Source: a virus (taxonomy: Duplodnaviria > Heunggongvirae > Uroviricota > Caudoviricetes). Taken from it: a stretch of 40,702 bases of DNA. The DNA is taken from the IMG/VR virus record IMGVR_UViG_2923350032_000005, positions 1-40,702 of that record; one strand, given 5' to 3'. This document shows positions 22,876-23,432 of this stretch, in pieces. How positions within the stretch are numbered: position 1 is the stretch's first letter; every line of letters starts with the position of its first letter. The notes beneath the pieces are model-generated. The model ran no database searches, was not told the DNA's origin, and saw nothing but the letters and a program-made list of their open reading frames with translations. The translations under genes and the position numbers were made by a program.

Positions 22876-23037
22876 GTTATTCCTCCTGTGTAATTACTGA
22901 TTCCATTAATGTAATGTAATATATTGTATTGTAAGAAAAAATTGTTTTTTTACAGTGATATATTTTTATAGAAGACTATTCGCTCAAGGTGCATTAAGAT
23001 TAATCTCACCCCCACGAAGAATGTTAAGGATAAGAAG

Positions 23038-23376
23038 ATGATAAAAATGATTAACTGTACTGCTTCCAATTGTGGCGTTGGATACGTTTTTGGCAAAGGC
23101 GTTGATGCTGAGCTAATCAATAGTCACGCAAGAGCATGTAAAATCGGTTTTGTGCAAGCAGGGAATGAAAAAGAATGGTCAATACTGTTGGAAAAGTTGC
23201 TAACCAAAAAAGCTGATTTTGAGTCTTTACTGACTGTATGTGAAACTGTTAATTCAGAAGATAAAAAAAACGTCATATCCAAGTCCAATTTATTTGAATA
23301 TTTATCTCATTTTGCAAATGCTACAACTGTTTATACCTTTCTCGAGGGGTTAGTGAACTCTCTTTTAGCCAAATAA
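23038..23376 (+). CDS. Hypothetical protein, AT-rich opposite-strand moron between lysis cassette and HNH/terminase
   Basis: 112 aa; ATG preceded by an AGGA-type RBS; flanking 22880-23430 is markedly AT-rich; convergent with Rz/Rz1. No family recognised. Confidence 0.5.
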   Translation: MIKMINCTASNCGVGYVFGKGVDAELINSHARACKIGFVQAGNEKEWSILLEKLLTKKADFESLLTVCETVNSEDKKNVISKSNLFEYLSHFANATTVYTFLEGLVNSLLAK

Positions 23377-23432
23377 TCACCATTTAGAATACAACTGGGT
23401 TTAAAAATAATTATAATTAAAAAGCTATACAC

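What the first reader, a model, noticed from the sequence alone, without database searches (positions are those of the whole stretch)
22880..23432. AT-rich opposite-strand moron between the lysis cassette and the packaging genes
A 112-aa gene with its own RBS is encoded on the strand opposite to the late operon, inside a segment that is visibly more AT-rich than the surrounding prophage. It is convergent with Rz/Rz1. The orientation and composition suggest independent acquisition and possible expression in the lysogen. No family recognised.
Basis: partly seen in the sequence, partly recalled or inferred. Interest (0 to 1): 0.5.

Follow-up and report, generated by a model that had tools for sequence, protein, structure and literature searches.

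The report
Opposite-strand cargo gene after phage lysis genes
A real, horizontally swapped single-gene insert in an E. coli prophage encodes a small soluble protein of a very rare, unnamed family that also travels on other prophages, Vibrio integron cassettes and Klebsiella plasmids; it is an ordinary kind of element (a phage "moron") and its function is unknown.

Summary
ORF 23038-23376 (+), 112 aa, has an AAGGA ribosome-binding site. It lies in the lowest-GC 598 bp of the window (22876-23473, GC 0.316; late region 0.54). It converges on Rz/Rz1 and sits upstream of HNH-TerS-TerL.

It is a moron. 1331 of 5426 complete E. coli genomes carry the flanks, but only 11 carry this insert. In sister prophages the Rz1|HNH slot is empty (26 bp) or holds unrelated cargo.

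The gene is under purifying selection (pN 0.25, pS 0.83 against a 62%-identical Enterobacter copy). There is no significant Pfam, PHROG, PADLOC or PDB match. An exhaustive search of 1.84 billion representatives found about 18 relatives.

Relatives at 26-62% identity occupy the same slot and orientation in four other lambdoid backbones; this is the position of lambda bor. Others are single-gene Vibrio integron cassettes or tandem pairs on Klebsiella plasmids. The AlphaFold model (pLDDT 85) shows two beta-solenoid rungs plus a five-helix bundle, with no structural neighbour.

Function is unresolved. My best inference is a prophage-expressed, non-enzymatic binding protein, possibly involved in phage or mobile-element conflict. 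This is a new member of a known kind, of moderate interest.

The parts
22876..23473 (.). AT-rich cargo segment (the moron) that replaces the short Rz1-HNH spacer of sister prophages
   Evidence: GC is 0.316, the lowest 598 bp in the window. Similarity to sister prophages stops at 22866-22875 on the left. It resumes at 23474-23537 on the right. The empty slot in L004 is 26 bp.
22956..22964 (+). Candidate extended -10 promoter element TGaTATATT, with no convincing -35
   Evidence: It was the best hit of my own scan. The tool's sigma-70 scan found no plus-strand site upstream of the ORF. This is weak evidence and AT-rich DNA gives such matches by chance.
22994..23005 (+). Motif TTAAGATTAATC, containing the palindrome GATTAATC, conserved upstream of the Enterobacter homologues
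   Evidence: The alignment of upstream regions shows TTA[A/G]GATTAATCT shared between E. coli and three Enterobacter-type loci, in otherwise poorly alignable DNA. It could be a -10 region or an operator. Its function was not tested.
23026..23030 (+). Shine-Dalgarno sequence AAGGA, 7 nt before the ATG
   Evidence: Read directly from the sequence.
23038..23376 (+). ORF112: a soluble 112-aa protein with two beta-solenoid rungs (residues 2-40) and a five-helix bundle (residues 44-110)
   Evidence: ORF list. RefSeq WP_000594256.1. Family alignment. pN 0.25 against pS 0.83. AF2 pLDDT 85.4. No transmembrane segment; maximum KD19 is 0.93.
23423..23466 (.). Hairpin (10-11 bp stem, 24-nt loop) followed by T runs on both strands, overlapping the Rz1 stop codon; it looks like a bidirectional terminator
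   Evidence: Inverted repeat I9. Folding gives -16.1 kcal/mol and z -2.7 on the minus strand, and -13.1 kcal/mol and z -0.3 on the plus strand. The tool's terminator scan did not call it because the loop exceeds 8 nt.
23433..23777 (-). Rz1/LysC o-spanin, embedded in Rz (23596-23988); the last gene of the lysis cassette and convergent with ORF112
   Evidence: PHROG Rz-like spanin, E 6.6e-27. RefSeq names it lysC. Its last ~13 codons lie in island-specific DNA.
22525..22875 (-). HNH endonuclease, the first gene of the packaging module. It starts at ATT behind AGGAGG, and both lie at the island's left junction
   Evidence: Translation. PHROG HNH, E 4e-45. RefSeq annotates a CDS of the same length. 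Sister prophages read ATG CCx CCx (MPP...) at this position.

Best explanation
This is a single-gene moron. About 600 bp of foreign, AT-rich DNA (22876-23473) has been exchanged into the variable slot between the last lysis gene (Rz1) and the first packaging gene (HNH) of an e14/SfV-like E. coli prophage.

Shown:
- The insert carries one real protein-coding gene with its own ribosome-binding site. A hairpin with T runs on both strands separates it from the convergent Rz1.
- The product is a soluble, cytoplasmic 112-aa protein with no enzyme-like domain. It has two beta-solenoid rungs followed by a five-helix bundle.
- It belongs to a very rare, unnamed family that moves as autonomous cargo. 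The family occurs as one gene, sometimes as a tandem pair, on lambdoid prophages, Vibrio integron cassettes and Klebsiella plasmids.
- In lambdoid phages the family is repeatedly kept in this same slot and orientation, which is the position of lambda bor.

Inferred:
- The gene is transcribed from its own promoter in the lysogen.
- It is opposed by Q-antiterminated late transcription after induction.
- The protein acts stoichiometrically by binding a partner rather than by catalysis.
- The payoff goes to the lysogen or prophage. The single most likely role is interference with other phages or mobile elements (about 0.3). Modulation of host physiology is the next most likely.
For: Moron status:
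- Presence/absence polymorphism: 11 genomes carry the insert and 1331 carry the flanks.
- The slot is empty, or holds GrlR-family or other genes, in sister prophages.
- The composition is extreme.
- There is a hairpin with T runs.

Real gene:
- The Enterobacter copy at 62% identity sits in the same slot, with pN 0.25 and pS 0.83.
- A family of about 18 clusters shares one architecture.
- The ORF is intact in a prophage that has lost its head and tail genes.

Autonomous cargo:
- Vibrio homologues are bracketed by attC-like repeats 640 nt apart, which makes them one-gene cassettes.
- Klebsiella IncHI1B/FIB plasmids and another prophage carry tandem paralogue pairs.

Slot conservation:
- P0003 (62%), P0010 (32%), P0014 (29%) and P0022 (26%) all lie on the opposite strand. 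Each sits between an Rz-like spanin and HNH/TerS or Nu1.

Soluble and non-enzymatic:
- There is no transmembrane segment or signal peptide.
- There is no significant Pfam, PADLOC, PHROG or PDB match.
- The model reaches pLDDT 85 and has no structural neighbour.

Integron cassettes of unknown function have been reported to encode phage defence (bioRxiv 10.1101/2024.07.02.601719, abstract seen).
Against: - No expression data exist. The standard sigma-70 scan finds no promoter upstream, and my best candidate is only an extended -10 in AT-rich DNA.
- The plus-strand fold of the hairpin is no better than shuffled sequence (z -0.3).
- Nothing links the protein to defence directly. There is no PADLOC hit, no defence neighbours consistently nearby, and no match in 50,697 sequenced phages.
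- The slot also holds non-defence cargo: glycosyltransferases, a GrlR-like regulator and an Acb2/Tad1-like gene. The slot therefore does not predict function.
- The gene is rare (11 of 5426 E. coli genomes), which argues against a strong general benefit.
Confidence: 0.55

Rival explanations
1. Lysogenic-conversion factor that changes host physiology or virulence, filling the role Bor fills in lambda. A small cytoplasmic protein made by the prophage binds a host regulator or enzyme.
For: It has the same slot and orientation as lambda bor (my knowledge of the lambda map; slot shown). Sister prophages carry a GrlR-family regulator in the same slot. The ORF is retained intact in a degraded prophage.
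Against: It is not related to Bor: it has no lipoprotein signal and no Pfam Bor hit. Homologues sit in Vibrio, Klebsiella and metagenomic contexts with very different host biology, so a host-specific target is less likely. No host phenotype is known.
Confidence: 0.18
2. Counter-defence or host-takeover protein used by the phage itself. A small inhibitor binds and blocks a bacterial immune protein.
For: It has the size and non-enzymatic character typical of phage inhibitors. In one relative's slot the neighbouring gene has an Acb2/Tad1-hairpin domain. The family is also on conjugative plasmids.
Against: It lies on the strand opposite the late operon and far from the early genes, so it would be poorly expressed during infection. 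Chromosomal integron cassettes in Vibrio are an odd home for an anti-defence gene. There is no similarity to any known inhibitor by sequence or fold.
Confidence: 0.12
3. Lysis- or packaging-linked regulator. The gene or its convergent transcription controls leaky or timed expression of the spanin, lysis or HNH/terminase genes next to it.
For: It is strictly adjacent to an Rz-like spanin in five lineages with different endolysin, spanin and terminase types. The hairpin overlaps the Rz1 stop codon. The island supplies the HNH ribosome-binding site and an ATT start.
Against: Many sister prophages work with an empty slot. Family members also occur with no lysis genes nearby, in integron cassettes, on plasmids and at the tail-fibre end of a prophage. 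Purifying selection acts on the protein, not only on transcription.
Confidence: 0.1
4. No function: a chance ORF in an AT-rich spacer, or a decaying remnant.
For: No curated family matches. The gene is rare. One database copy is frameshifted (P0002).
Against: pN 0.25 against a saturated pS of 0.83. Length and architecture are conserved down to 21-30% identity in about 18 clusters. The fold prediction is confident. The minus strand of the island has no ORF longer than 56 aa.
Confidence: 0.03

Closest known systems
Phage morons as defined for lambdoid and HK97-like phages (definition as quoted in PMC2629481, which cites Juhala et al. and Hendrix et al.)
   Same: It is an extra gene inserted between two genes of an operon when related phages are compared. 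It has deviant base composition, its own translation signals and a flanking terminator-like hairpin. The slot is variable across relatives.
   Different: Independent transcription has not been shown. The cargo protein belongs to no described moron family.
Lambda bor (opposite-strand gene just downstream of Rz/Rz1, expressed in lysogens; from my knowledge of the lambda map)
   Same: It has the same position and orientation relative to the lysis cassette and the packaging genes. One family member (P0022) sits between an Rz-like spanin and Nu1 in a lambda-type phage.
   Different: There is no sequence or structural relation. Bor is an outer-membrane lipoprotein, whereas ORF112 has no signal peptide, lipobox or Pfam Bor match.
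Integron gene cassettes of unknown function, some of which encode phage defence (bioRxiv 10.1101/2024.07.02.601719; abstract)
   Same: Vibrio homologues are one-gene cassettes bounded by attC-like repeats inside cassette arrays next to an integrase.
   Different: The window copy is not in an integron and has no attC. None of these cassettes has been tested for defence to my knowledge.
Right-handed parallel beta-helix (PbH1/Beta_helix, NosD) repeat proteins
   Same: The N-terminal 40 residues form two repeats of about 20-22 residues (NCxxxxCGVGf...), modelled as two three-strand rungs. Six of 20 family members give sub-threshold Pfam Beta_helix hits.
   Different: There are only two rungs, against seven or more in real beta-helix enzymes and tailspikes. 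All hits are below the Pfam threshold. There is no similarity to the neighbouring tailspike in L023.

Membership tests
Moron (lambdoid/HK97 sense) | Present in some related phages and absent at the same site in others | tested here: met
   11 genomes carry the insert and 1331 carry the flanks. L004 has a 26-bp spacer at this site. L005-L007 carry other cargo.
Moron (lambdoid/HK97 sense) | Base composition different from the surrounding phage genes | tested here: met
   Island GC is 0.316 against 0.542 +/- 0.034 for the late region, z -6.7. ORF GC3 is 0.30 against 0.56-0.67.
Moron (lambdoid/HK97 sense) | Own promoter | tested here: inconclusive
   The consensus scan finds no plus-strand site upstream. 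The candidate extended -10 TGaTATATT lies at 22956-22964. A conserved GATTAATC motif is present.
Moron (lambdoid/HK97 sense) | Own terminator | tested here: inconclusive
   The hairpin at 23423-23466 has T runs on both strands. It is significant against shuffles only on the minus strand (z -2.7). Its loop is too long for the tool's terminator rule.
Moron (lambdoid/HK97 sense) | Expressed from the repressed prophage | not testable with these tools
   Needs RNA-seq or 5'-RACE of a lysogen.
Lambda Bor family | Lipoprotein signal peptide with lipobox, and a match to the Bor profile | tested here: not met
   The Pfam scan gives only a chance MREG hit, E 0.037. There is no hydrophobic N-terminus; maximum KD19 is 0.93. 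The sequence starts MIKMINCTASN.
Known anti-phage defence systems (PADLOC-DB v2) | Match to a defence-protein profile | tested here: not met
   0 families at E up to 10.
Right-handed beta-helix repeat proteins (Pfam Beta_helix / NosD) | Profile match above the curated threshold, with many stacked rungs | tested here: not met
   The query has no hit. Six of 20 relatives hit only at E >= 0.002, below the cut-off. The model has two rungs only.
Integron gene cassette | Single ORF bounded by attC recombination sites in an array | tested here: not met
   This is met for the Vibrio homologues, where repeats at 7800-7940 and 8440-8580 bracket the gene at 8001-8438 in L013 and L014. It is not met for the window copy, where no such repeats were found.
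Toxin-antitoxin pair | Adjacent co-oriented partner gene | tested here: not met
   The island holds no second ORF of 60 aa or more on either strand. Tandem paralogues occur only in L022 and L023.

The most novel reading that the evidence does not exclude
ORF112 founds a new one-protein family of conflict factors carried by mobile elements (defence or counter-defence) with a previously unseen fold: a two-rung beta-solenoid capped by a five-helix bundle. Lambdoid phages have kept it for a long time in the bor slot, antisense to the late operon, so that it is on in the lysogen and switched off by late transcription. The exposed solenoid edge could act by strand-stacking onto a target, or by self-association.
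Probability: 0.2. Interest if true: 0.6.

Novelty: new member of a known kind. Interest (0 to 1): 0.35.

Why it matters
The element type is familiar, so the value lies in the cargo. This is a compact, autonomous protein family that no curated library describes and that has no structural neighbour. It occurs on three kinds of mobile element and is held in one phage slot across deep sequence divergence.

That profile is typical of the genes that recent screens have turned into new defence or anti-defence systems. The family is therefore a cheap and well-defined candidate for a phage-challenge or interaction screen.

The finding also documents the Rz1|HNH junction of e14/SfV-like prophages as a cargo-exchange site. 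Across relatives this site holds regulators, glycosyltransferases and an Acb2/Tad1-like gene.

If the protein proves to have only a minor or host-specific role, this is one more uncharacterised moron.

Tried and rejected
- Curated libraries. Pfam, PHROGs and PADLOC gave nothing meaningful for the ORF. The MREG hit (E 0.037) is chance.
- First structure model. The model built from 4 sequences left residues 1-41 unmodelled. Only the 20-sequence alignment gave a usable model.
- Long multi-stretch hits of the profile search (P0016, P0018, P0021, P0024). These are ankyrin or other repeat proteins and are spurious.
- Link between the N-terminal repeats and the neighbouring beta-helix tailspike in L023. 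hhalign gave probability 0.4%, so I rejected it.
- Other collections. 50,697 phage genomes gave no match. GTDB species representatives gave none.
- Rfam on 22400-24000 gave only a chance snoRNA hit below threshold.
- Literature. The RefSeq accession appears in no paper. The Gifsy GiPD474 paper is unrelated; it concerns an Avs2-like protein in another region.
- The search for related loci with the 20-sequence alignment failed for lack of conserved stretches.
- Promoter. The conserved-promoter search across homologous upstream regions gave no shared -35/-10 architecture.

Full report
**1. The observation**

The window region 20-26 kb carries a phage late operon on the minus strand:
- Q-type antiterminator 25741-26493
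- two holins, 24867-25253 and 24599-24880
- GH19 endolysin 23985-24599
- Rz 23596-23988, with the embedded Rz1/LysC 23433-23777
- HNH endonuclease 22525-22875
- P27-family small terminase 21905-22408
- large terminase 20175-21908

Between Rz1 and HNH, on the plus strand, lies ORF 23038-23376 (112 aa, ATG). AAGGA sits 7 nt upstream of the start. RefSeq annotates the same ORF as WP_000594256.1, 'hypothetical protein'.

The ORF has GC 0.348 and GC3 0.301. The packaging genes have GC 0.54-0.59 and GC3 0.56-0.67. The segment 22876-23473 has GC 0.316, which is effectively the lowest-GC 598 bp in the whole 40.7-kb window (z -6.7 against the late region). All elements of the finding are therefore present at the stated coordinates and are not marginal.

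**2. It is an exchangeable insert**

The 611 bp around the ORF occur in only 11 of 5426 complete E. coli genomes, always once, at 98.5-99.8% identity. The flanking Rz1 and HNH DNA occurs in 1331 genomes.

Sister prophages show the same slot in several states:
- empty, with 26 bp between the Rz1 stop and the HNH start (L004)
- holding a GrlR-family gene on the late strand (L005)
- holding two unrelated opposite-strand ORFs (L006)
- holding one unrelated late-strand ORF (L007)

Pairwise BLAST places the left border at 22866-22875, in the first codons of HNH. The right border lies at 23474-23537, inside the 3' end of Rz1. This is the comparative signature that defines a moron (definition as quoted in PMC2629481).

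The prophage backbone is e14/SfV-like. It has ymf and yfd gene names, an HK97-type head and a contractile Mu-like tail.

**3. It is a real gene**

A copy at 62% identity lies in the same slot of Enterobacter-type prophages (L002, L019, L021). Against it, pN is 0.25 while pS is 0.83 and saturated.

The minus strand of the island has no ORF above 56 aa. In strain BE2-5 a deletion has fused the HNH start region to a baseplate gene, removing the whole head and tail block, yet the ORF is identical and intact.

**4. The family**

No curated library recognises the protein:
- Pfam gives only a chance hit.
- PHROGs gives nothing below E 0.1.
- PADLOC gives nothing at E up to 10.
- The PDB sequence profile gives nothing below E 0.3.

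An indexed search of 5.8 billion clusters found 4 proteins. An exhaustive HMMER profile search of 1.84 billion representatives found 22 hits. About 18 of these are true ~105-149-aa relatives. The long multi-stretch hits are ankyrin or other repeat proteins. A second profile search added Vibrio members.

The alignment shows one architecture throughout:
- an N-terminal pair of ~20-22-residue repeats (x-N-C-x-x-x-x-C-G-V-G-f)
- a helical C-terminal half, ending in the best-conserved motif S-x-L-F-x-x-L-S-x-x-A-N-A-(S/T)-T-V-x-x-F-L

The proteins are neutral to acidic and have no signal peptide or membrane segment.

**5. Structure**

With four sequences, AlphaFold modelled only the helical half. 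With the 20-sequence alignment, mean pLDDT rose to 85.4. The model has six short strands in two rungs (residues 2-40) and five helices (residues 44-110).

**6. Where the family lives**

This is the most informative result. Besides the E. coli and Enterobacter copies, the contexts are as follows.

| Member | Identity to ORF112 | Context |
|---|---|---|
| P0010 | 32% | between spanin genes and glycosyltransferases/HNH/TerS (L032-L034) |
| P0014 | 29% | between an Rz-like spanin and HNH/TerS, in a phage with a different endolysin and holin (L035) |
| P0022 | 26% | between an Rz-like spanin and Nu1, in a lambda-type phage (L010, L011) |

In every case the gene is on the strand opposite the late operon. 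This is the position and orientation of lambda bor (my knowledge of the lambda map), although the protein is unrelated to Bor.

Other contexts:
- P0007 (44%) is the first gene of a tandem pair of paralogues at the tail-fibre end of another prophage.
- Klebsiella IncHI1B/FIB plasmids carry a similar tandem pair.
- Vibrio homologues are one-gene integron cassettes. attC-like repeats 640 nt apart bracket the gene, within arrays next to an integrase.

The gene therefore functions as autonomous cargo on three kinds of mobile element.

All enterobacterial members are AT-rich (GC 0.34-0.40 against flanks of 0.50-0.55) despite deep divergence. The Vibrio members match their hosts. Low GC is thus a lasting family trait and not evidence of a recent arrival.

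**7. Signals around the gene**

The consensus scan finds no plus-strand sigma-70 site upstream. My own scan gives an extended -10 (TGaTATATT, 22956-22964), and an analogous TGtTAGGAT in Enterobacter. In AT-rich DNA this is weak evidence. A 12-nt motif containing the palindrome GATTAATC (22994-23005) is conserved between the E. coli and Enterobacter upstream regions.

Downstream, a 10-11-bp hairpin (23423-23466) overlaps the Rz1 stop codon. T runs follow it on both strands. It folds better than shuffles on the minus strand (z -2.7) but not on the plus strand (z -0.3). The lambda-type relative has a stronger, unrelated hairpin in the same place.

**8. Mechanism**

Shown:
- a foreign, selected, autonomous gene encoding a soluble protein with no recognisable enzyme domain
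- a conserved antisense position at the lysis-packaging junction

Inferred:
- It is transcribed in the lysogen from its own promoter.
- Convergent Q-antiterminated late transcription opposes it after induction.
- It works by binding a partner.

I rate a role in conflict with other phages or mobile elements as the single most likely function, at about 0.3. This rests on the prophage-moron, integron-cassette and plasmid distribution, and on reports that unknown integron cassettes encode defence (10.1101/2024.07.02.601719). The rivals are host-physiology conversion, counter-defence, and a lysis-linked regulatory role. A functionless ORF is effectively excluded.

**9. Verdict**

The element is a new member of a known kind, a moron in the bor slot, and it carries an uncharacterised and structurally unmatched small protein family. 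Interest is moderate: nothing here overturns expectations, but the family is a well-defined candidate for functional screening.

Noticed in passing
window 22873-22890 (minus strand): In island-bearing prophages the HNH endonuclease begins with ATT behind a strong AGGAGG, giving IPQRTP... Sister prophages read ATG CCx CCx (MPPRTP...) at the same position. The island junction therefore supplies the HNH translation start and probably lowers its expression.
   Followed up: partly
window 33099-34019 (-): An AT-rich (GC 0.378) 306-aa ORF has a C-terminal BRCT domain (Pfam E 1.4e-6) and a weak hit to the PADLOC candidate defence family PDC-S48 (E 2.7e-7). It is convergent with the CI-like repressor at 32430-33116 and overlaps its 3' end. 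It could be a second cargo or defence gene.
   Followed up: partly
window 396-1148 (-): An AT-rich (GC 0.353) 250-aa AraC-family regulator lies beyond the tail-fibre genes, near the window edge. It is another likely moron or a neighbouring island gene.
   Followed up: no
L005 1069-1389 (sister E. coli prophage, same Rz1|HNH slot): The slot holds a 106-aa GrlR-family protein (Pfam GrlR, E 6.6e-6, just under the cut-off) on the late strand. GrlR is a type III secretion regulator of attaching-effacing E. coli.
   Followed up: no
L034 5446-5730 (-): In a relative's slot, the gene between the spanin and the ORF112 homologue carries a precomputed Pfam Acb2_Tad1_hairpin hit, a domain of anti-CBASS/anti-Thoeris sponges. 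It matches phrog_717 (unknown function).
   Followed up: no
L002 5837-7866 (-); also L019, L032-L034: Two late-strand genes between the ORF112 homologue and HNH are phage glycosyltransferases: phrog_1579 (E 1.8e-253) and phrog_854 (E 1.9e-71). This is further moron cargo in the same slot.
   Followed up: partly
L022 5980-6675; L023 6001-6711: On Klebsiella IncHI1B/FIB plasmids and in another prophage the family occurs as a tandem pair. The first is a 'type A' copy like ORF112. The second is a divergent 'type B' paralogue that lacks the C-terminal ANAxTV motif. They may form a heteromer.
   Followed up: partly
L030 3367-4026 (E. coli BE2-5): A deletion joins the HNH start region to a baseplate assembly gene and removes the packaging, head and most tail genes. 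The lysis cassette and ORF112 remain intact.
   Followed up: partly
L029 34482-36077 (E. coli Eco_23-2667): A sister prophage with the same ORF112 island carries an annotated anti-phage dCTP deaminase next to its integrase. Cargo at other slots therefore differs between carriers of the island.
   Followed up: no
window 25333-25659 (-): A 108-aa ORF between the Q antiterminator and the holins matches phrog_3501 (E 2.5e-54, unknown function). RefSeq annotates a shorter version of it (258 nt in the L001 and L029 copies).
   Followed up: no
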